Positions 43,508 through 54,953 of a stretch of 64,000 nucleotides of DNA are shown in pieces. The stretch is taken from assembly GCA_000091205.1 (NCBI GenBank), contig AP006485.2; one strand, written 5' to 3'. Numbering within the stretch: position 1 is the first letter of the stretch; each line of letters begins with the position of its first letter. The translations under genes were made by a program, and so were the position numbers. The DNA comes from Cyanidioschyzon merolae (lineage: Eukaryota). Below the pieces are notes generated by a model. That model did not search any database. It worked only from the letters and a program-made list of their open reading frames with translations, and was not told the origin of the DNA.

Positions 43508-44674
43508 TTGAGAGTGTGGGCGTTGTCTGATGCAATGCAGACCGGGGGTTTCCCCAGCCCTAGTGTGCAACGCGTTCCAAAAGACGTGTTCTGCTTGATG
43601 GATACTGAGCGTTTTGATCAGCGGCCGACTTGTTGCATCGTACGCGAGTCCCGATGCCAGAGCGGAGGCAGCCTTTTCCGCCAGCCTGTGTCAATGGAGA
43701 TGTACATTCGCGGGCTCGCGTCTGCTGACCTTGATTCCAGTTTAGTGCGCTTTCGGCATGAGTCTGTGAGCAATTCATCACCGGACGAGATCAAGTGTTT
43801 CCCCTGCCTATCCAGCGCTGCGAGTGATTGCGTGCGCATGTTGCCTCGCGATAGAACAATTGGCAACTTGAAGAACGTCTGCTTCGAGCTTGCGACATGG
43901 AAGGGAAACGCAAGAATCGGGGCCTGTACATATGAATGGGTTTTCATTTTGATTACTGTACGAAGCCTTGCACGAGGGCATCGCTCATCTTCATCATGAT
44001 AGCAATCACGTAACGTTTCCCAGTGACACAGCGTCTAAGGAGCCACTCGGAAAAATCGGTCTAGCATCGTAGAACTAGGCGTGAATCCGTAAATCCTAAC
44101 TGCCGCACTTGGATTGTCAAGGCTGTCTGTGTATAAAAATAAGGTCCGAACATCAACGAAAAGCAGGTGTAGAACGAGCAGTCCCGTTTTCTCGTTTTAC
44201 CGGACCCGCGCGCATGGCGGATGTGCTTCTGCAGCGTGTTTGCGTTCGGTGCCGTTGGCGCGCGTTGCGAGGCTTGCGTTCTTATTTTATGAAAGCTGGT
44301 GGTTCTCAGGTTATTGTGGATACGTTTGTGGTGGCTTGTCTCGGTCTTGCGGGAGCCATTATTGGTCTGGAGTACGCTTTGGACGGTGACGAAGCCGCCT
44401 ACAGCGAACTCACCAACGGCAAGGACGAGGTTGCCGGCGATGCCGTTCGGGCACACGTACGTGCAACGTGGCGCAGCGCTGCACTTTCGCGGGTAGCGCA
44501 AGTGCCTGGCGGGACCTGAAACTGGTTTTTGACGAGCACGTCGCACCGGAGCTACCCAAGATGTTCCGTTTGATCGGACAGCAGTGGCTGACCCCGAAAA
44601 CTGCCTGGTTGTGGTCCGTGGTAAGCAGCTGGTGGGCAATCGCCTGAAAGGATGCGTGGTTCGTGCAGCGAGGC

Positions 44675-44678
44675 AAAA
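44675..44678 (-). terminator. Pol III terminator (T4 run) 3 nt downstream of the tRNA discriminator base
   Basis: Minus-strand context reads ...CTGCCGC A GC TTTT GCC. Confidence 0.5.
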
Positions 44679-44680
44679 GC

Positions 44681-44803
44681 TGCGGCAGGTGAGACTCGAA
44701 CTCACGACCTTAGGATAGCTTTCTTGGGCTCGTGTTATGAGACCTACGCGCTGTGGCACTGAAACTGAACTGGACAAAGTTTAACCAACTGCGCTACTGC
44801 CGC
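44681..44803 (-). tRNA. tRNA-Met (anticodon CAU; elongator-like) with a 19-nt anticodon-loop intron at 37/38 and a 30-nt insertion in the D-loop
   Basis: The minus strand reads GCGGCAG TA GCGC AGTTGGTTA[AACTTTGTCCAGTTCAGTTTCAGTGCCACA]GCGC G TAGGT CTCATA[ACACGAGCCCAAGAAAGCT]A TCCTA AGGTC GTGAG TTCGAGT CTCAC CTGCCGC A. It has a 7-bp acceptor stem, a 4-bp D stem, a CU-CAU-AA anticodon loop and a canonical T arm. Its architecture matches human elongator tRNA-Met (TAGCGCAG...GCGCG.CAGTCTCATAA...AGGTCGTGAGTTCGA.CCTCAC), including U31-U39. Confidence 0.65.
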
Positions 44804-46750
44804 TGATGGGAAATGCTTGCGATAATCTAGATATAAAGCCCATTGCGCCCAGGTTCGTTGCACCGACGGCGCGTGCGTTTGTTCGTGCTCGATTCTGTGC
44901 GCTAGGTTTCACCAACCGTTTCAGCATGATGTCCCTTGTATGGTGCAACTTGATTGAATTCGCACCACTTTGGACAGGTTCGGCCTCGGTGCGCACCTTG
45001 TTGCGCAGATGGGATGCTTGCTTCATGACGTCAGTGCTATGATCCCCTGTCGTGAGGTACAGATGCGCATGAAGCGATAGCGCCCTTTTGCGGGTGCACG
45101 GCTGGTGTGCCGGAATGTGCACTCATCTGGTCAGCGTAAATTTATCATGCGGCATGCTTGCACCCAAGTCGACGTATACACGGACGAGCACGACCTTGCG
45201 TCAGTTATTTTTGGGGTACGGAGTAGGGCGCTGCATGATCGTGTAGACGAACCGGGGGATTCCCGATTGCGCCATGGTTATCGGTATCCGCGAAAGCGTT
45301 CATCATTCTGCACGGGACCGCTGCGTTTCAGGAGCCAATGCCGATAACTTCTTTTCGGAATTAGGGTTTGTTCGTCCAATTTTCCTGGTGCCGAGCGCCT
45401 GCCGTGTGCGCCCACTAGGTTGCCACTAGCGTCGATATGGTTATCGCATGGCAACGGAGCGGCTTTTCCATACCATGATTGAAGAAAGCTCGAGGCATCA
45501 GCCTGCGTGTACACGCCCGCGGGCTCGCGGAACGCGTCTCTCACGGACGACTCGGATATGCACTGGCACCGGAGCTGCTGTATTTGCAGCTGCATACCAA
45601 ATCGATGCTCCTTCGCCTACGAGCTGGTGCGTCACATAAAAAGCAAACGAAATTCCTAGGTACCGTCATATCTTCGGGACGGCACAGCGTTGCAGGTTGG
45701 TCGAGCAGTCGCCCAAACTTTGGTTTGAGGCGACGCGGGTCGACGGACAACATAATGGTAACGCCCGACATGCGGCGGTTCCTGGAGGGTTTCGCCGTTT
45801 TCCTGGACGGCGTAACAGGGAGCACTCGTGATTCAAGCTGACACCGAGACAGCGGCCCCAGGCGGTCACTTTTAGACGTCCATGGTAAGTGCCATAAAAC
45901 AGTGCGAGGCTCTCACGCAGATCCGTGTCGATGATGCTACCAGATACGTTTGCTCATCAGCTTGGCCGCTCTTTCCGACGTTTCCGTGGCCGTATCCACC
46001 TATTCGATGTCCATTGGCAAGCACATTTGGTCATAGAGCACTCGCTAGCAAACAGCATAGCACAGCACTGCAGATCCTCGGCAGTTCCTGGTGCACCGCT
46101 CACACCGGTGACGCATCGCGAGTGCGCACCGCATCCTGTGCCTCGTGCTGAACTAGGTCCGTTTGATCGCATGGCATTCGCGAAAGACGCATGCAGATGG
46201 TGTGTATCGCGTTTGGCAGAGGGCTATGTTATTCAAACCAGTGAACCTGAAACAGTCTGTCATTGAGATGTTTATCGACAAACGCGTGGATGCGGCATCC
46301 TATCGTTCGCGGAGCGTCCTGTCATAGTGCCAGCGAAGAGTCGGAACTCTTACGCGAGCAGAGCTGCATTCGTTTTATTTTGCAAGCAGCCCCGGACCGT
46401 GCAGCTGCTTGCATTCTTCTGCAGATTTACATCCATCGAGGAGCGTCAAATCGTTCCGGCTGAAGCGCACAGAAACGTCGCGCGAAAGCATGTATCCGAG
46501 GATGTCGGGTGACTCCAACGGCGAACAACATCCCAGCCATTGCCGCCTACGATACGATTTGGGTAAGGCGCTTATGGAAACAGGTCGGGCCGATGCAGCC
46601 CATTTATGCACAGGCACTTGCTCTTCGTTGTATTGACCTATAGTGCAGTCCACTGCTATTGCAATGTTCATGTACACATGCTCTAGATTATCTACCGAGA
46701 TCATGCGGGTAGGCCGCAGCGTAGTCTCCAGAAAGCTCATGGAAACAGTT

Positions 46751-47875
46751 TCATGGATGAATAGTATCTTTGAATTCAAAGAACGAGTCATGCATGCGAA
46801 TGAAAGAGTACTCCTCGCATGACCCACAACACCAGTATAAATTAGGTTCTTTGTGAAAGATAGCGAACCCGGCGTGCATAAAACCTCGGAAAAACTCATC
46901 CAATTCTGGGATAGAGGCGAAACCCGCGTGCACTTCGATAAGGACTTGATTCACGTGCCGCAGCGCGTGCCAGGTTCTCAAGGCATATTGCTCTTCAGAG
47001 CTGAGTTCACGTTGGCTCCGTCCTTGGCGAAGGAGCTTGTCGGCTGCCCGGAACGCTCCCAAGAAAGAGGTGAACTCACCACCCTCGATATCGATCTTGA
47101 GCACCTCGACGACGTTTGGCAGCTCCAGGTGACCCAATCCAGACATGATCTCCGCCAGCGAATTGTTGCTCTCAGCCGGGCCAAGCGGCCGGCGAAAAAA
47201 ACGAACGCGTTCCAGAAAGCTCTCGGAGTGCATCGCAGATGGTGGCGATGATGTTGGGTCAAAGACGAAAAAATCGCAGTCCGGCAAGCGTTCATGAAGC
47301 TTCGTTTCGAAACTGAAATCGTCGTTGCTACCAAAACTGTAAACAATGCAGCGATACGGGAGCCTGAGCTGCTCACGAAACAGCCGTCCCCGGTTCAGGA
47401 TAGCAGGTGGGTCGCACACCCATTTGCCACCGTCTCCGTTGTTACCGATCCGTTCCTCTAAGGTACAGCCGATATCCGGTTCCCAGTTATTGTAGAAAAA
47501 AACCGACGGGTTTGGTTCGAGGGTAACGGTCTGGCGCTTTCGCTGACGTTGTGACCGAATCCTCCGTTGGGCCCAGAGCGCGTCCGACTCGCACCAGAAG
47601 CCGAGCGACTCTTTCAGTGCTCGCGTGTCCTTCGAAGTCACTGGTAGGGTCCGGTCCCAAATCTCCGTCAGGGTTTTCGCGTTGCGCAAAGAGCTCCCAC
47701 GACGAAGAGCCCTCGACACGGAGCGAACGCAGCTGTCATCCACGGCGGGAAGATCCGCGCGCTGGACACCACTAGAGCGTCCGTTGAGAACACTAGTAGC
47801 GCGGTATATTACGATAAGAGCATAAATAAGAAAAGTCAAAGCCCCTGAAGCGATGCACGGTTTTCGCCACGTCAT
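46751..47875 (-). CDS. FkbM-family (Methyltransf_21, METTL24-like) SAM-dependent methyltransferase, type II membrane topology; ORF opens at 48115, probable start is Met at 47875
   Basis: TM segment ALTFLIYALIVIY. Motif I-like CIVYSFGSNDDFSFE, and the family hallmark VLKIDIEGGEF. Confidence 0.65.
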   Translation of the reverse strand: MTWRKPCIASGALTFLIYALIVIYRATSVLNGRSSGVQRADLPAVDDSCVRSVSRALRRGSSLRNAKTLTEIWDRTLPVTSKDTRALKESLGFWCESDALWAQRRIRSQRQRKRQTVTLEPNPSVFFYNNWEPDIGCTLEERIGNNGDGGKWVCDPPAILNRGRLFREQLRLPYRCIVYSFGSNDDFSFETKLHERLPDCDFFVFDPTSSPPSAMHSESFLERVRFFRRPLGPAESNNSLAEIMSGLGHLELPNVVEVLKIDIEGGEFTSFLGAFRAADKLLRQGRSQRELSSEEQYALRTWHALRHVNQVLIEVHAGFASIPELDEFFRGFMHAGFAIFHKEPNLYWCCGSCEEYSFIRMHDSFFEFKDTIHP

Positions 47876-48024
47876 GCCGGCCACTGAAAACAAACGTCTT
47901 TCAAAAGAAAAACGTTGCCGCCAACGGTGTACAGTAGTGACGGGAAACGCGCCGTAAGCAAATCGTCTCCAGCTGAGGTGCAGACGCATCCCAGTCTTTT
48001 TCGACCGTCCACCTACTACGTCTT

Positions 48025-50149
48025 TCATTTTCTTCTCATATAATTCCACTTTGAGAGGTCGCCCCACAGGTTCTCTCGTGTCGAATCTGGAGGTCTTTTC
48101 TCCAGCACCGCACATCTCCTGATATTGATAGCGACATTAAAGTCTCGGTTCACAAACTCCATGCGTTTCTTGCCATCTTTGGTTGTACTTACTAATACAA
48201 GTAGCCCACGAACGTTCGCCCTCCTTTCCATTTGCTCCTCCGTCAGCGGTCCGTACTTTGCTATTTCGTCGGGGCTCCTCTGGCACTTTTCCATCTCGAT
48301 CCTTTGAAGTGTACAACACAGTTCATGGTGTGTATACGATGTTCGGAACTCATCTACAGGTATTGTAACTAACCGGTCTGCACACCCCTTGTACGTTCTT
48401 GTCGTTGGAGCTGGTGTACACTCTTTTTCAGACGCCTAGCGCCCTGCTCCGTATGCTACTACCAGCCTTTGACTTTCATCCTCTTTGAAGGCACTCAGCT
48501 GATTGAAAAAGTTCGCGAACGCACACTGCTTGCCAACGTATAGATTCATACGCAATCGAGACCACCGGGGCTTTGTATACTCTTTCCACAGTGCCTCCCA
48601 ATGACCAACGCGAACTTTCATGAACTCCCGAAAAGCTTGAAAGTCGGCTCCGCGGCTCGTCACCTCGCCCAAAGCTTCCAGGTGCTCTTTCATTCCTGCA
48701 TTCCATGTCTCGATTTCCTTCCACGCATTCTTTATACCGGATTCTCGATAGTATCTCGCTCTCGAGAACCTCAAAAGACGCATGTCTTTCTGAATGAAGT
48801 TGCCGTCTGGACCATCTTCCGCACGCCTGGGTACAGCGATGGCTGTGACATTCGTATTCCCAGGGTCCGCGCCCACGACAAAGTCGTTATACTTCCTTTT
48901 CTGTGTGGCACAATCCGCCTCCTTCTCATCTTCATACCTCGTCACGTCAACGACAACGTCGTCATCCTGCACTTCCTGTGTCGCAGGATCCGTCTCTTTG
49001 TTTTCTTCATGCTTCGTCATGGGCGAAGCCGAAGGCTCGATAGGACGATACGCCCTCAAGCGCTTGCAGTCTACACAAATGGATACTCCATCGGTTTCGA
49101 TCATCCCCGTGAATACCCTCTGCTTGCTAATTTTGAGACGTTTGAAACTGAAGATATTCTTCCAGTACGTCTCCCGGTTTTCACCGGAGAATTCCTCCCT
49201 GCTGGCATTGAACTCGGGACTGATCTACTTCATGATGCCGTAGACGACTCTGGAGCCGATATAAACAAAATGGGGCTGTATGTTCCATAACGGGATGACG
49301 TAGAAGCGCTTCACCATTAGGAAAGCCCTCGGTCTCTCGCGCTCTTCATTTTTTCCTCACTCAGCTTCATCTCCGTCTTGCGTTCGAGTTTTCGGTCCAG
49401 AAACACGAAATACCGCAGAATGAGGCGATAGTGTCTTTCCATATCTTTTTTCAACTCTGGTACCTTTTCTGCTGGATTCGCCAGCCCAAAAACTGCATGG
49501 TGCTCTTGTATTGCCGCACGGATTACAGAAGCTTCATTCGTGCTCCTGCGTGGCGCCTTCTTGTCACCAAATTCGACCTCATCTTCATGCTTACGATCAT
49601 TCGTGATGCCTTGAAAATCGCACATTTTCCATCGCGAGATAGACCCGGGTAGAGTGCAAACACGGCGCGTATCATGAAACGTTCGAGGTTCACTGTCAAA
49701 TGGTGTTTCAGGTCCGTGATTTACTTCATCGCCCCGTATATGTAGATATTTCCGTCACCGCTGTATCGATTACCCTCGAAGGGGAATTCCACGAAGATTT
49801 CGTGGAGAGCATGCACTAGCTCATTTTCCCTCCGCATACCCCCTGTACCAAGCATCAGTTGACGAATAAACGTCTTGTCGAAAAACTCGTCCGAAACCTC
49901 GACTCTTTCCATGTGCGTCACATCGCGATGCATCGCCCTCACCAAATGCATTAGCCCTGACGATGCGTTTATAATACTTTTGGAGTACGAATCGACACAT
50001 GGTCTCTGATAGCGTCTCGCAAATTTTGCTTGTACTGATCCTTGGTATGTCAAAGAAGACCAGCTTTCACCACCATCTCGTCGCACAGGTGTCTTTTTCG
50101 CCGCCTTCGACGTTGGACCTCCCCTTTCGGTCCTTTTTCTTCTCTTCAT
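48025..50149 (-). pseudogene. Fanzor/TnpB-like (OrfB_IS605 family) RuvC nuclease gene in four ORF pieces (50149-49721, 49625-49317, 49104-48436, 48294-48025), with an in-frame TAG at 48436-48438
   Basis: N-terminal NLS MKRRKRTERGGPTSKAAKKTPVRR. RuvC-I reads [20 protein letters not shown] (Asp at about 48865-48867). [19 protein letters not shown] and DRLVTIPVDEFRTSYTHH are colinear with ISDra2 TnpB (PKYYRST, QDFLHKLTTSLV, GRLVSKVSPYFPSSQLC). RuvC-III reads EFVNRDFNVAINIRRCAVL (Asp at about 48142-48144), against DRDENAALNIRREAL in ISDra2. The Zn-finger cysteines are degenerate. Local GC is about 50%, against about 60% for flanking genes. Confidence 0.6.
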
Positions 50150-53100
50150 TTTCTTCTGGACTCGGTACTGTTTTTTATTTTTTTCTGGCAGCCTGCGACA
50201 CTGGGCCTCCAGGATTATGTACTTGCTTTTTCATAACTTTGCTTTTTTAGTTTTTTTAAGAAGAAAGCCCTTTGAACGCTTCTGGTACACACTGCGAAAA
50301 AATTTGAGTAGACTTGTTTGAAGTTTGAAACACAAATGCAACCGAAAAACTGTACTTGGCTATGAACTCAACGAAAATACAACTTTTACATCAGAGCGAC
50401 ACGCTAGAGATCAAGATCACGTTTCCAGTCATCGTCGGCGATATGCGTCATGTCTCAAGCCTGTCTGATCTCCCAGCTGCGCTCGCTGTGCGCGATGCGT
50501 GCACCGCGCGAGACGCCTCACCGATCGATGAAGGACACGTGTCCGACACCCCGCCGTGGCACATGCGTGTTCGCATCGCACTGCAGCTGAAATAAAGTCT
50601 CGTAGATCGGAAACTCACGTGGAACGATCTCTTGCTATAGGCTATGTCGCTGATGCACATCGCAGTACGGACCTGACATACAAGGAGATGCAGGGGCCTG
50701 GCACGATTGCCCGCGATGCTTCTATCAAAGGCGTAGTCACTGTAGCACCTTACGCTTGTGCGAGTGAGGTATGCATCACCCTACTGAATAGGAGTTTCGT
50801 TCGTTTTATTGATCGTGAAAAAACTGTGTGCCGTAGTCTTCCCGACTACGGATATACGTTTATTCCCGTTTCTTGCAGTCCATTCCGCTCAGACGCTGGA
50901 ATGAGAAACTGGTTTGAATTGTGTTTCTATCCGGCGCCAGGCCAGCAAGTGTCGAGCAACCCACCGCAAATTCGTTCTGATCGATGGAATGTGCTTACGG
51001 CTCAATGATCCGAGAATTCACGACGAGTACCGACACCCGGGAAATCTGCCGCCATTGCGCACCAGCTCTGCGATTTCCACCAGTCACATCGCGTGCCTCA
51101 TCTCCGACATTCTGCTTTTCCGACGTTCCATTGTGCCCTGCGACTGCCGTGAGCGTTCGAAACAGCGCCCAAACCGCTGGATCGGGCGTAGCACAGAGAC
51201 CGACAGACATACCCCCTACTGGATTGGAGCCGGGAGCCATCGCTCACACGTAGCACTGCTCATTGCCGATCTCATCTGAATACTCCGTGACCACATTATA
51301 GTGATGGAAAGCGGCAACGTCTAAGGCCAGTGAAGAAGAACGTGCAACGAATAGGTCGCAAAACGTGATTCCCCGCAGCATGCGATGTTGGACGATTAGA
51401 CAATTCTCGGCGATGTATAAGTGACTACATAACCGAGTCGTAGCCAGGGCTAATAGTACCGACAGCCCCGCTGCTTTTTTTCTATGAACAGCAGTTTGCC
51501 CCCGTTTTGAATTATCCATATACAAATCTACCAAGTCTACCGAATAAAGTCTCATAAATTGAGACGGCAAAATGCCCCTGGTGGAAGAAACTTTCTCGTT
51601 GCAGTGCGAAATCGATCGTGCGCTGTTCAAGGTGCTGCAGCTACAAGTAGTAGCCTGCCATCTTCTTCGTTCACTCGTGTCGCTTCACCGCAATTTGTAT
51701 CAACCGTTCGAAAACCTCTCATCCAGCGGCTTCTTTGGAGGTACGTCATGGATATCATCCGGGCTGAAATACATGAAAGACGGGACGCTCATGTAGAGAG
51801 CTTTTGAAACTTGCTGTGGTCGGTGCAAGTCGTTCAAGGAACGGACTACGAGAGGGGTACCTCATACGTCTGCTGTCCGCACTATGTCTGGTCTGGACAA
51901 GTAAAGGCGTTTTGCTCCGAAGCCAGCCAGCCAGCCAGCCAGCATAAAGTCATCTCGCGACCTTTCACCGATCTACAATGTACAATCCACGTTTTGAATA
52001 CCTGTGCGAAAAACAAACAATTACACGTTTAGCGTGTTGATACATGTTCTTGCAAGTGCGCTGCTCTGAGTAAAAAGTCTCGTGATCGGTAGGAAGCATT
52101 CAAGATTTTTAACTTCTGAACCGCAACCTCGTGAGAAATTGCCGAGGCGCGGGTACGGCACCCTCCACTAGCGGGAATACGGTCTGTCTGGGAACCTCGT
52201 TCCTCTCTGGTACCGCAGGTGTGCAGTAGTGCATCCCGGATGCGTCCTGATCCTTCGCCCAAAAGACCTGCCGAGTGTGGCACTGCCGATCGCGAGTCTA
52301 AAACTGCTGTCGCTAAGAGCGATACGCAGGGTTCGCTCAGCAAGCACTGGTTGCCCCAGCAAGCGCTTGGGCTGGTATGCACGCCGCTGCAGTGACCCCA
52401 CGTTTGTCTCTTGGTGCTTTTCGTCATGGCTTTTATTCCGAATGATTGAGCATTCACTCAATACCCCAGAGAAAGACCGGGCGGATGGAGGATGATCGTG
52501 ATTGGCTCACGTCCTCCTCGCACGCATTGCTTCTTCGACAGACTCCCCTGACGCGAAATCTAGTCCATGGTCAGGAATCCCGTCTTGCTTGGCTGGTTGT
52601 ATTGATGACGCATCATGCGCATTGCGTGAACGCTTTCAGCTTGCGCTCACAAAGCCGACGGTCTGTAGCCAAATGATGAGGAGGCAGAATCGAGAACGGA
52701 ATACGCTGTCATTTTGGAGCGTCGCACGGAACGCATGCTCTCTATGAAGACCGCGATACTACGCAGGTATCTCGCTAATGATAGGTCGCGTACGAGGCGC
52801 TTGTGCATAGCTGCAACCTGTTACGTGTGCGGAAAGCTGAATGAATGCATCCAAGTGCCGTCTCTGGTTGCGTTTTTGAAAAGAGGGTCCAAACAAAGCC
52901 CCTGTTGTGTGGTCCCGCCCCGATGACTTTGCAAGCCATGCTGTCGGTAGATTCCCTTCGAAAAGAGCTCAACAGCTCGAGCACGATGCTTACGTATGTC
53001 CAGTGATTCAGAGGCGCCTTGCCAGCTGCTAGGAGCAATGCCGGTTGGATCCATGACACACGTCTCGCAGATGCGTCGAGAATGTTGAATGCCCGCAGGG

Positions 53101-53307
53101 CCCCGAGTCGAGCGATCAGGGAAGCGCATGCTCGAGGAGCCACACACGCGCCTGACGACCCGCTGATACTCTAGCATATAGACACACAGATCTCAAGACA
53201 CACAAATAAAGAGCCGCAGATATGCGATACACTCACAAGCCAGCGACCTGCACCGCACAGATCTGGCTTCGTGTGTGAAGAGCGCCTCGCCTGTTCATCT
53301 CCGGGGT

Positions 53308-54953
53308 TCACGATGACGTGGAAAATTCAAAGTCTTCGAGATCCGCATCAGCTGCGACGTTCTCAACCGCAGCACCAGGAGAGAGCGGCAAAGCAAATGC
53401 TTGCCTTTCTCTCCGAGTTTTATGCTTCCAGACATGGAACACGACTTCATCGTCAACATCAGCGACCGATAGCGGGGCAGCGTCGGTAGCAGGATTCTCA
53501 TCCATCACAACTTCTTCTGCGCTCGGTGAAGGCTCGCAGACATCAAGATCAAAAGCGTTATCCCAGTTTGAAACGATCTGGGCTCCAAGCTGCTGCGACG
53601 AAGGCAGTCCAACGTGCTTCGGCCACGTATAGTATGGGATTCTGCCAGTTGCCCAATCTTGCACCAGGACTCGAGCTGCTGCTTCGAGATCAAGAACTCC
53701 CGCTTTGCGTAACAACCCACGCCTTTTTGCAAGCAGTGCCAAGAACTGCGTGGCAAAAGATTCCTCTCGAGTAGCTTCGTTTGCAGCAACCATATCGCAC
53801 ATCGAAAATGCAGGCATTTCGTAGAGTAGAGAGAGCGCTCCATCCGCGTTATACTGACATCGTTCGAGTACCAGGCGAGCCGCAGCCACCGGATCGCTGA
53901 GCTCCTCAACAGCGAGAAATCCAGCGAGCGCCATTCGACTTTCGTCTCGAGAGCCAGATGTCGCATTGGCAACTGGCTCGGGTGAGCCCGCGGCTTTCGT
54001 CTGCTCCACCTCCACCACGGGTGCTGGATCGATTTCCTGCACATCGTCCAGCACAACACCAGGCGAGTCCAGCAACCGGATGTTGCTATCAAGCCGAACC
54101 TCCTGCAGTGTTTTGGTGATACCCGGACGGGCGCCAGTCGCCACAGCACCTTGTTCACGGCAGAGGGCGTTCAGTAGACTTGACTTGCCCACATTCGGTT
54201 TGCCGACGATGCCTACAGTGATGGTGCTGCTGGATGATTGCTTGTCCGCACGCCGTTTCGCATAGAGCTTGAGCAGCTGCACCAGCTGCGAGAGCTGTTT
54301 TGGTTGTACTGCGCTACCTGGCTGCCGCGGGCCCCGGTGCTGACCAGTCTGATCGAGGCCTTCATGCATCGCCAATGTCGGGTACTCGGCCCGAAGTCGA
54401 CACAGCCAGGCCTGGAGAGCTTCACGTGGAACCAGGTCCGCTTTGCTGAGCACCAATATCAGCCGTTTCCCGCCAGCAGCTCGCGCACCCTCGTGACGTA
54501 CCAGCAGCTCGAGCGCTGAAGATCGGCTCTCCAGCGGGTTCCGGGCGTCGAGCACCTCGACAACGACATCCGAAAACTCCACGACACGACGAAGCGCTGC
54601 AGCAAAAGACCGCCTCGAGCGCGCAACTTCGCGGAACACCGGAGTCTTCTCGAGTGCATTCGCACCGGATAACGCAGGAGCGGACACGGGCGACTCGCCC
54701 AAGGAGCCCGCTTCTGCCGTCACCGTCGATCGCAGGGCCAGTCGTCGCGCTGCCTGCTCCAGCAACTGCTCCTTTTAGGGTTGAGGTTCGGTACACCGAG
54801 CTCGCGCTGGGCCTTGCGCTGCCCTTTAATCATACCTTCTTGTCGTTGCTTGCGAACCAGGCGCCGCATTCGTCGATTGTGCTCCGCCACTTTCCGCTGC
54901 ACTTTGTACTTGTGCTTTAGCGTTTCTCGTTTGCTATGGCGATGTGGTGCCAT
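53308..54953 (-). CDS. GNL3/nucleostemin (Nug1)-like circularly permuted nucleolar GTPase; the N-terminal basic exon (54953-~54776) is out of frame with the GTPase body because of an A4 homopolymer
   Basis: The N-terminus KHKYKVQRKVAEHNRRMRRLVRKQRQEGMIKGQRKAQRELGVPNLNP matches human GNL3 ([40 protein letters not shown]). The body runs in G4-G1-G3 order: VVEVLDARNPL...LILVLSKADLVPRE...GIVGKPNVGKSSLLNAL...LLDSPGVV. Confidence 0.75.

What the first reader, a model, noticed from the sequence alone, without database searches (positions are those of the whole stretch)
44681..44803. tRNA-Met(CAU) gene with two intervening sequences, one at a non-canonical D-loop position
All stems of a canonical tRNA are perfect: a 7-bp acceptor stem, a GCGC/GCGC D stem, a 5-bp T stem with a TTCGAGT loop, and a CUCAUAA anticodon loop. 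It is followed by a T4 Pol III terminator. Two stretches are extra. One is 19 nt at the canonical 37/38 site. The other is 30 nt inside the D-loop, between AGTTGGTTA and the 3' D-stem strand. D-loop introns are essentially unknown in most nuclear genomes; they are reported mainly for Cyanidioschyzon, a few green algae, nucleomorphs and archaea. This is therefore either an unusual split-tRNA architecture requiring BHB-dependent splicing, or a tRNA gene disrupted by a small insertion. It is the only tRNA gene in the window and sits at the edge of the low-GC island that holds the Fanzor-like element.
Basis: seen in the sequence. Interest (0 to 1): 0.7.

Follow-up and report, generated by a model that had tools for sequence, protein, structure and literature searches.

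The report
Two-intron elongator tRNA-Met gene, red alga

Summary
On the minus strand, 44803 to 44681, lies a 123-nt elongator tRNA-Met(CAU) gene (Rfam tRNA, 48.4 bits). It has a 30-nt insert between D-loop A21 and G22 and a 19-nt insert at 37/38. Removing both in silico gives a 74-nt cloverleaf that ARAGORN calls tRNA-Met(cat).

The window is Cyanidioschyzon merolae nuclear DNA. Soma et al. 2013 reported that 27 of its 43 nuclear tRNA genes carry introns. These include 14 D-loop introns and nine two-intron genes, all removed at bulge-helix-bulge (BHB) motifs.

I recovered seven syntenic orthologues: two C. merolae-like strains, Cyanidiococcus yangmingshanensis and two related lineages. All keep both introns at the same sites and lengths. 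Only 2 of 74 exon sites vary, against 33 of 49 intron sites (Fisher p = 1.4e-15). This excludes an insertion-disrupted pseudogene.

The D-loop intron keeps a 4-bp helix, a 3-nt bulge and a flanking helix with one compensatory change. This geometry places both cuts at the inferred junctions. The 37/38 intron keeps the anticodon-intron pair. A TATA-like box near -34 and a T4-5 terminator are also conserved.

Verdict: a genuine gene of an already known kind. The only small addition is the cross-genus conservation of intron sites and lengths. No RNA data were available here.

The parts
44831..44837 (-). TATA-like box TTTATAT, 34 to 28 nt upstream of tRNA position 1. It is the probable upstream Pol III promoter element.
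   Evidence: Read directly from the sequence. TTTATA[T/A] is conserved at -34 to -37 in all orthologous loci, while the surrounding flank diverges and carries indels. Soma et al. 2013 report TATA-like sequences upstream of most C. merolae tRNA genes.
44782..44803 (-). Exon 1: acceptor 5' strand, positions 8-9, D-stem 5' strand GCGC, and D-loop AGUUGGUUA (positions 1-21).
   Evidence: Rfam alignment and parse. Invariant across 8 orthologues except D-loop position 16, U to C.
44752..44781 (-). Intron 1: 30 nt, non-canonical, between D-loop A21 and G22.
   Evidence: Rfam shows an insertion here. 19 of 30 sites vary among orthologues, but the length is always 30. Its 3' end GUGCCAC is invariant.
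44784..44787 (-). Exon strand of central helix H of the D-loop BHB-like motif (U17 G18 G19 U20). It pairs with intron bases at 44754-44757 (G47 C48 C49 A50 of the pre-tRNA).
   Evidence: RNAalifold predicts it independently. All 4 pairs are intact in all 5 distinct sequences.
44781..44783 (-). 3-nt bulge (U20a, A21, first intron base) that holds the inferred 5' splice site after its second base.
   Evidence: Left unpaired between H and h' in the RNAalifold consensus. The first intron base varies (A or U), as expected for a bulged base.
44778..44780 (-). 5' strand of flanking helix h' (intron bases 2-4). It pairs with 44758-44760 (intron bases 22-24).
   Evidence: Pairs 24-46 and 25-45 are invariant. 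Pair 26-44 changes from U-A in C. merolae to A-U in the other lineages, a compensatory change.
44736..44751 (-). Exon 2: D-stem 3' strand GCGC, G26, anticodon-stem 5' strand UAGGU, and anticodon-loop CUCAUA. The anticodon CAU is at 44739-44737.
   Evidence: Invariant in all orthologues.
44717..44735 (-). Intron 2: 19 nt, at the canonical 37/38 position.
   Evidence: ARAGORN -i reports i(39,19) once intron 1 is removed. 14 of 19 sites vary, but the length is always 19. Conserved bases are C2, G13, A15, A16 and G17. G17 (44719) pairs with C32 (44741) as the anticodon-intron pair, and A16 pairs with U33.
44681..44716 (-). Exon 3: A38, anticodon-stem 3' strand UCCUA, variable loop AGGUC, T arm GUGAG-UUCGAGU-CUCAC, acceptor 3' strand, and discriminator A. 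No CCA is encoded.
   Evidence: Invariant except variable-loop position 47, U to C.
44675..44678 (-). T4 run starting 3 nt after the discriminator base: the Pol III terminator.
   Evidence: T4 or T5 sits at the same place in all orthologues.

Best explanation
This is the functional nuclear gene for elongator tRNA-Met(CAU) of Cyanidioschyzon merolae, and it belongs to the 'highly disrupted' tRNA gene class already described for this alga.

Inferred pathway:
1. Pol III starts from an upstream TATA-like element and stops at the T4 run, giving one linear precursor with both introns.
2. The tRNA-splicing endonuclease (cmSen2, cmSen34, cmSen54) cuts the 30-nt D-loop intron at an HBh'-type BHB-like motif. 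The parts are a 4-bp helix UGGU/GCCA, a 3-nt bulge UA|N holding the 5' cut, a flanking intron helix, and the 3' cut two bases past the helix on the other strand. A ligase joins A21 to G22.
3. The 19-nt intron at 37/38 is removed next. It has only a relaxed eukaryote-type motif: the C32-G anticodon-intron pair plus a 3-nt 3' bulge.
4. End trimming and CCA addition give a 74-nt body.

Shown here: the gene parse, the cloverleaf after in-silico splicing, the conservation pattern, and the conserved pairings. Inferred: transcription signals, the enzyme, the order of splicing, and expression itself.
For: Gene call and parse:
- Rfam tRNA hit of 48.4 bits covering the whole model, with two insertions.
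- In-silico splicing gives tRNA-Met(cat) in ARAGORN and a cloverleaf minimum-energy fold.

Organism:
- The kinesin ORF is 100% identical to a UniParc entry. The next best hits are Cyanidiococcus at 61% and Cyanidium at 60%.
- Neighbouring genes are syntenic with Cyanidiococcus yangmingshanensis contig JANCYV010000012.1.

Conservation:
- Eight syntenic copies are all 123 nt, with introns of 30 and 19 nt at the same sites.
- Variable sites are 2 of 74 in exons against 33 of 49 in introns, Fisher p = 1.4e-15.
- Neighbouring proteins are only 54-66% identical.
- All eight spliced products are called tRNA-Met(cat).

D-loop motif:
- RNAalifold independently recovers helix 17-20:47-50, the 3-nt bulge 21-23, and helix 24-26:44-46.
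- All these pairs hold in every sequence, with one compensatory U-A to A-U change.
- The motif energy is -6.9 to -7.8 kcal/mol, against +0.6 to +5.1 for the 37/38 motif.
- This matches the published pattern in which stable ectopic BHBs are cut first and 37/38 last (PMC3728597).
- In Cyanidiococcus the last intron base is G, so only the 21/22 junction preserves A21.

Flanking signals:
- The TATA-like box and T-run are conserved, as reported for C. merolae tRNA genes.

Single copy:
- Soma et al. list 43 genes, with only tRNA-Gly(CCC) duplicated. The single elongator Met gene must therefore be functional.
Against: - I had no RNA evidence for this gene. Soma et al. tested Asn, Phe, Ile and Gly, not Met.
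- Their figures and supplement, which would list this gene's introns, are not held as text. That this exact gene is in their catalogue is therefore an inference.
- The D-loop motif is relaxed, not a strict hBHBh'. The 3' cut lies in a 3x2 internal loop next to the D stem.
- A naive BHB scan finds equal or better chance configurations. Nine conserved 4-bp-helix configurations exist, and only one restores a cloverleaf. The motif alone is therefore not diagnostic.
- Covariation support is one pair from about three independent lineages. The shuffle control is weak: 45 of 500 shuffles reach the observed covariation score.
- For intron 2, RNAalifold prefers an alternative pairing (75-86, 76-85) that competes with the anticodon-intron pair.
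Confidence: 0.9

Rival explanations
1. The locus is an insertion-disrupted tRNA-Met pseudogene. A 30-bp fragment landed in the D-loop of a formerly normal gene that carried only the 37/38 intron, and the locus is now dead.
For: Standard tRNA finders fail on it: ARAGORN finds 0 genes. The D-loop insert in C. merolae contains an imperfect CAGTT x3 repeat, which could look like slippage junk.
Against: The same insert site and length are present in 8 syntenic loci from 4 lineages. Exons are 97-100% identical while introns are 37-63% identical between genera and neighbouring proteins are 54-66% identical. A dead gene would not keep 72 of 74 exon sites. C. merolae has only 43 tRNA genes and only Gly(CCC) is duplicated, so no spare elongator Met gene is expected.
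Confidence: 0.02
2. The gene is functional, but the D-loop insert is not removed by the BHB-dependent splicing endonuclease. Either another nuclease-ligase route removes it, or it stays in the mature RNA as an enlarged D-arm.
For: The motif is relaxed (HBh' only, with no h helix on the 3' side), and chance BHB-like configurations are common. Soma et al. note that yeast-type Sen54 contacts the D-arm, so a canonical complex should not fit D-arm introns, and the enzyme's composition is unresolved.
Against: Within an otherwise diverged intron, the conserved bases are the ones forming H, the bulge-flanking pairs and h'. Both inferred cuts lie two bases 3' of H on their strands, which is the BHB rule. 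For other C. merolae tRNAs with D-arm introns (Phe, Ile), spliced products and intermediates were sequenced. From my own knowledge, no mature tRNA with a 39-nt D-loop is known.
Confidence: 0.05
3. The gene is mis-assigned: it encodes an initiator tRNA-Met or a CAU-anticodon tRNA-Ile rather than elongator Met.
For: The anticodon CAU alone does not distinguish these.
Against: The gene has G1:C72, U54 in a UUCGAGU T-loop, and anticodon stem UAGGU/UCCUA without the three G-C pairs. From my own knowledge of eukaryotic initiator identity (A1:U72, G29-31:C39-41, A54/A60), these are elongator features. The U31.U39 mismatch matches yeast and human elongator Met (own knowledge). C. merolae reads AUA with tRNA-Ile(UAU), so no lysidine-type tRNA-Ile is needed.
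Confidence: 0.02

Closest known systems
C. merolae 'highly disrupted' intronic tRNA genes (Soma et al. 2013, Sci Rep 3:2321, PMC3728597), for example tRNA-Phe(GAA) with a D-stem intron plus a 37/38 intron
   Same: Same organism. Two independent, non-nested introns, one in the D-arm with a stable BHB-type motif and one at 37/38 with a weak or absent central helix. Upstream TATA-like box and downstream T-run. Intron sizes fall within the reported 11-69 nt. The energy contrast (stable ectopic motif, unstable 37/38 motif) parallels Phe: -11.1 against +1.15 kcal/mol in the paper, and about -7 against +0.6 to +5 here.
   Different: For Met the ectopic intron is in the D-loop (21/22), not the D-stem, and the motif is HBh' rather than hBHBh'. 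Splicing of the Met gene was not among the RT-PCR cases. I could not read the figure that lists each gene.
Archaeal multi-intron tRNA genes with hBHBh' motifs (Thermoproteales and others)
   Same: Short protein-spliced introns at non-canonical positions, several per gene. Cuts are placed by a 4-bp helix flanked by 3-nt bulges.
   Different: This is a eukaryotic nuclear gene with a eukaryote-like Sen2/Sen34/Sen54 enzyme. The motif is relaxed on the 3' side. Soma et al. found no sequence similarity to archaeal disrupted tRNAs.
Canonical 37/38 intron of elongator tRNA-Met in plants and streptophyte algae
   Same: An intron at 37/38 in the elongator Met gene. The EMBO J 2026 review (PMC13578239) notes that in some streptophytes introns are restricted to tRNA-Met-e and tRNA-Tyr. 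The anticodon-intron pair and 3-nt 3' bulge are as in other eukaryotes.
   Different: Plant genes have only this one intron and rely on internal A/B-box promoters (own knowledge).
Ectopic tRNA introns in the Guillardia theta nucleomorph and in Chondrus crispus
   Same: Non-canonical intron positions, including the D-loop, in genomes of the red-algal lineage.
   Different: Most nucleomorph introns cannot form a BHB. The D-loop intron here keeps a conserved BHB-like core.

Membership tests
tRNA (Rfam RF00005) | Covariance-model score above the gathering threshold across the full model | tested here: met
   48.4 bits against a threshold of 29, model positions 1-71 of 71, E = 2.7e-07.
tRNA (Rfam RF00005) | Cloverleaf with 7/4/5/5-bp stems and conserved U8, A14, G18G19, A21, U33 and T-loop UUCGA after intron removal | tested here: met
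   ARAGORN draws the 74-nt cloverleaf and the minimum-energy fold is a cloverleaf. Pair 31-39 is U.U.
Eukaryotic elongator tRNA-Met | Anticodon CAU with elongator rather than initiator identity elements (G1:C72, U54, no G29-31:C39-41 run) | tested here: met
   Read from the sequence. The list of identity elements is from my own knowledge, not from a tool.
C. merolae BHB-mediated disrupted (intronic) tRNA genes, Soma et al. 2013 | [quoted passage not shown] | tested here: met
   100% protein match for the kinesin ORF and for a neighbouring ORF. The closest other genera are at 54-66%.
C. merolae BHB-mediated disrupted (intronic) tRNA genes, Soma et al. 2013 | One or more short introns (11-69 nt), including ectopic positions such as the D-loop | tested here: met
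   A 30-nt intron at 21/22 and a 19-nt intron at 37/38.
C. merolae BHB-mediated disrupted (intronic) tRNA genes, Soma et al. 2013 | BHB or BHB-like motif (hBHBh', hBH, HBh' or 'no H') at each exon-intron junction, formed independently by each intron | tested here: met
   Intron 1 has a 4-bp H, a 3-nt bulge and a 3-5-bp h', conserved in 8 of 8 copies and recovered by RNAalifold. Intron 2 has a 2-bp H that includes the anticodon-intron pair, so it is the relaxed type. Caveat: chance BHB-like configurations are frequent.
C. merolae BHB-mediated disrupted (intronic) tRNA genes, Soma et al. 2013 | Upstream TATA-like sequence and downstream T-stretch | tested here: met
   TTTATAT at -34 to -28 and T4 at +3. 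Both are conserved in the orthologues.
C. merolae BHB-mediated disrupted (intronic) tRNA genes, Soma et al. 2013 | Precursor is transcribed and spliced to a mature tRNA | not testable with these tools
   No RNA data were available. Purifying selection on the exons is indirect support only.
Strict archaeal hBHBh' intron | Two 3-nt bulges separated by 4 bp and flanked on both sides by helices of at least 2 bp | tested here: not met
   For intron 1 the 3' side is a 3x2 internal loop abutting the D stem (h = 0). For intron 2 the H helix has only 2 pairs.
tRNA pseudogene or insertion-disrupted gene | Relaxed constraint on exon sequence; insert absent from orthologous copies | tested here: not met
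   2 of 74 exon sites vary against 33 of 49 intron sites. The insert is present in all 8 orthologous loci.
Self-splicing group I or group II intron in tRNA | Intron of hundreds of nucleotides with a catalytic core | tested here: not met
   The introns are 30 and 19 nt. There are no Rfam intron hits in the window, even at E <= 1.

The most novel reading that the evidence does not exclude
The two introns are under selection for geometry and length rather than being neutral passengers. Both sites and both lengths (30 and 19 nt) are identical in Cyanidioschyzon, Cyanidiococcus yangmingshanensis and a third related lineage. This holds although 33 of the 49 intron sites vary among the lineages and the flanks carry indels.

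That pattern would imply one of two things. The cyanidiophycean endonuclease might measure the intron hairpin in a ruler-like way. Or the introns might serve a function, such as guiding a modification or timing maturation. It would also date the D-loop intron to before the split of these genera.

I found no paper in the searchable library that compares nuclear tRNA introns between these genera.
Probability: 0.15. Interest if true: 0.45.

Novelty: already known. Interest (0 to 1): 0.22.

Why it matters
The finding confirms that the scan can pick out a truly unusual gene layout from raw sequence. The biology, however, is published. C. merolae nuclear tRNA genes with ectopic and multiple introns, processed at BHB motifs, were described in 2013.

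The small addition here is comparative. The D-loop and 37/38 introns of elongator tRNA-Met sit at the same sites, with the same lengths, in Cyanidiococcus and a related lineage. Only the bases that build the splice motif are conserved. This argues that these ectopic introns are old and stably maintained, and it gives a natural mutational data set for what the endonuclease needs.

There is also a practical warning. ARAGORN misses this gene. The Rfam tRNA model misses two orthologues that differ from the detected copies by one exon base and one junction base, apart from the diverged intron interiors. Such genes will therefore be under-annotated in new red-algal assemblies.

Tried and rejected
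- ARAGORN on the window found nothing. It cannot handle the D-loop insert. Rerunning it on in-silico spliced variants resolved this.
I used the T-arm and variable-loop pattern AGGTCGTGAGTTCGAGTCTCAC, which is shared by many bacterial tRNAs.
- Exact look-up of the 454-aa ORF next to the tRNA failed, probably because the annotated start differs. A homology search followed by contig look-ups solved it.
- The Cyanidium caldarium locus of the methyltransferase orthologue (L128) is not syntenic and holds no tRNA. I could not date the intron beyond the Cyanidioschyzon/Cyanidiococcus group.
- Rfam missed the Cyanidiococcus (L129) and L127 copies at gathering score, and missed L129 at E <= 1 on a 500-nt slice. 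I found them by exon string search.
- A naive BHB scanner did not single out the true junctions. When conservation in all sequences is required, nine configurations remain, and only one restores a cloverleaf. I therefore do not claim that the motif is significant by itself.
- The figures and supplement of Soma et al. 2013, which list each gene's introns, are not held as text.
- The ORF at 44061-44777 (minus strand, 238 aa) overlaps the tRNA and has no Pfam hit. The block pattern of conservation (exons conserved, introns not) does not fit coding constraint, so I rejected it as a gene.
I did not pursue it further.

Full report
**What is at the coordinates**

Rfam's tRNA model (RF00005) matches window 44803 to 44681 on the minus strand. 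The score is 48.4 bits against a gathering score of 29, with E = 2.7e-07. All 71 model positions are covered, with two long insertions, one in the D-loop and one in the anticodon loop.

Read on the minus strand, the precursor is:

GCGGCAG UA GCGC AGUUGGUUA [30 nt] GCGC G UAGGU CUCAUA [19 nt] A UCCUA AGGUC GUGAG UUCGAGU CUCAC CUGCCGC A

It is followed by GC and TTTT.

- Removing both inserts gives a 74-nt RNA whose minimum-energy fold is a cloverleaf.
- ARAGORN calls that RNA tRNA-Met(cat).
- Removing only the D-loop insert gives tRNA-Met(cat) with a 19-nt intron at the canonical site.
- With the D-loop insert present, ARAGORN finds nothing.

The gene is on the minus strand. Pair 31-39 is U.U, which from my own knowledge is normal for eukaryotic elongator tRNA-Met. 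The low-GC stretch starts about 3.3 kb away rather than adjoining the gene.

**Which genome this is**

The window has about 55% GC and long uninterrupted ORFs.

- A 916-aa kinesin ORF is 100% identical to a UniParc entry. Its next-best matches are Cyanidiococcus yangmingshanensis (61%) and Cyanidium caldarium (60%).
- The ORFs flanking the tRNA have orthologues of 98-100% identity in metagenome contigs and of 54-66% identity in Cyanidiococcus.

The window is Cyanidioschyzon merolae nuclear DNA.

**What is already known**

Soma et al. 2013 (PMC3728597) reported the following for C. merolae:

- 27 of the 43 nuclear tRNA genes contain introns, 42 introns in all.
- 17 introns lie at 37/38 and 14 in the D-loop. 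Nine genes have two introns. Intron sizes are 11-69 nt.
- The motifs are BHB or relaxed BHB types (hBHBh', hBH, HBh', 'no H').
- TATA-like sequences lie upstream and T-stretches downstream.
- RT-PCR on Phe and Ile showed that ectopic introns with stable BHBs are removed before the 37/38 intron.
- Only tRNA-Gly(CCC) is duplicated, so elongator Met is single-copy.

The figures that list each gene are not held as text, and no supplement is held. That this exact gene is in their table is therefore an inference, though a strong one. A 2026 review repeats the picture and adds Chondrus crispus and the Guillardia nucleomorph.

**Related loci**

Using the neighbouring methyltransferase and a hypothetical protein as anchors, I fetched syntenic contigs. 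The tRNA is present in all of these:

- two C. merolae-like strains (L121, L130);
- an unnamed Cyanidiococcus-like lineage from three JGI metagenomes (L122-L124);
- the C. yangmingshanensis reference assembly (L129, JANCYV010000012.1);
- a close relative of that species (L127).

Sources for these are. All eight copies are exactly 123 nt and align without gaps.

Conservation by region:

| Region | Variable sites | Identity between genera |
|---|---|---|
| Exons | 2 of 74 (D-loop position 16, variable-loop position 47) | 97-99% |
| Intron 1 | 19 of 30 | 43-53% |
| Intron 2 | 14 of 19 | 32-63% |

The exon-versus-intron difference gives Fisher p = 1.4e-15. All eight in-silico spliced products are called tRNA-Met(cat). 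This pattern is what a functional split gene predicts, and it is the opposite of a pseudogene.

**The D-loop intron**

The conserved islands within the intron are bases 2-3 (AC) and the 3' end GUGCCAC.

RNAalifold, given no hint, pairs exon U17-G18-G19-U20 with intron G47-C48-C49-A50. It leaves bases 21-23 as a 3-nt bulge, and it pairs intron 24-26 with 44-46.

Pair counts:
- All seven pairs hold in every sequence.
- Pair 26-44 is U-A in C. merolae and A-U elsewhere.

BHB geometry puts each cut after the second base past the central helix, on its own strand. I derived this rule from the known 37/38 case and from my own knowledge. Applied here, the cuts fall after A21 and before G22, exactly the junctions needed for a 9-nt D-loop. 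In Cyanidiococcus the last intron base is G, so the alternative 20a/21 register would replace A21 by G. This favours 21/22.

The motif is the relaxed HBh' type, because the 3' cut lies in a 3x2 internal loop next to the D stem.

A naive scan shows that BHB-like configurations are common by chance. Nine with a full 4-bp helix are conserved in all sequences, and only this one restores a cloverleaf. The case therefore rests on conservation plus cloverleaf restoration, not on the motif score. The shuffle control for covariation is weak (45 of 500), as expected with about three independent lineages.

**The 37/38 intron**

Conserved bases are C2, G13 and A15-A16-G17.

- G17 pairs with C32, forming the anticodon-intron pair three bases before the 3' cut.
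- A16 pairs with U33.
- C2 pairs with G13, closing the intron hairpin.

The rest of the central helix is mismatched, and the motif energy is positive, +0.6 to +5.1 kcal/mol. The D-loop motif is at -6.9 to -7.8 kcal/mol. This parallels the published Phe case, so I infer that the D-loop intron is removed first.

RNAalifold prefers a competing pairing, 75-86 and 76-85, with one G-C to A-U change. I cannot exclude that this pairing forms at some stage.

**Flanks**

TTTATA[T/A] lies 34-37 nt upstream and a T4-T5 run lies 1-2 nt after the discriminator in all lineages. The rest of the flanks diverge and carry indels. No CCA is encoded.

**Mechanism**

- Shown: the parse, the cloverleaf, selection on the exons, and conserved splice-motif pairings.
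- Inferred from PMC3728597 and general tRNA biology: Pol III transcription from the upstream element; endonuclease cuts at the D-loop motif and then at 37/38; ligation; end processing; and CCA addition.

**Verdict**

This is a genuine gene of a kind already described in this organism, so interest is low. The modest new point is that the intron sites and lengths are shared across genera. I found no paper on that in the searchable library.

Noticed in passing
L129:8397-8519 (minus strand) and L127:11616-11738: The Rfam tRNA model does not report these two orthologues. L129 and L127 are missed at gathering score, and L129 is also missed at E <= 1 on a 500-nt slice. Apart from the diverged intron interiors, they differ from the detected L122-L124 copies by one exon base (U16 to C) and the last base of intron 1 (A to G). 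Detection of this gene layout by the covariance model is fragile.
   Followed up: partly
window 44788 (pre-tRNA position 16) and 44752 (last base of intron 1); alignment A3 columns 16 and 52: These two positions change together: U and A in C. merolae and the L122 lineage, C and G in Cyanidiococcus yangmingshanensis and L127. A 16-52 pair would sit right at the 3' splice site and is not part of the BHB model. It is a single event, so coincidence is possible.
   Followed up: no
window 44755-44772 (intron 1 interior): In the C. merolae lineage only, the intron interior reads CAGTT CAGTTT CAGTG, an imperfect three-fold tandem repeat. The other lineages have unrelated sequence of the same length.
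   Followed up: no
window 48116-53307: The spacer between the methyltransferase gene (46751-48115, minus strand) and the GTPase gene (53308-54765, minus strand; MMR_HSR1 domain) is about 5.2 kb here. The same two genes are about 2.5 kb apart in the syntenic Cyanidiococcus-like locus L122. The extra DNA coincides with the low-GC stretch (48-51 kb, GC 0.48-0.50), which suggests a lineage-specific insertion.
   Followed up: partly
They gave no Pfam hit, and the 222-aa ORF gave no meaningful PDB sequence hit. The 222-aa ORF contains a GADPGNTN motif reminiscent of a RuvC-I motif (own reading). The label is neither confirmed nor excluded.
   Followed up: partly
L006, L018, L039, L046, L047, L093 (metagenome contigs): Several bacterial-looking tRNA-Met(CAU) 3' halves are preceded by non-tRNA sequence immediately upstream of the anticodon loop. 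This looks like large intervening sequences in the anticodon loop, possibly group I introns as known for cyanobacterial tRNA-fMet. They are unrelated to the finding.
   Followed up: no
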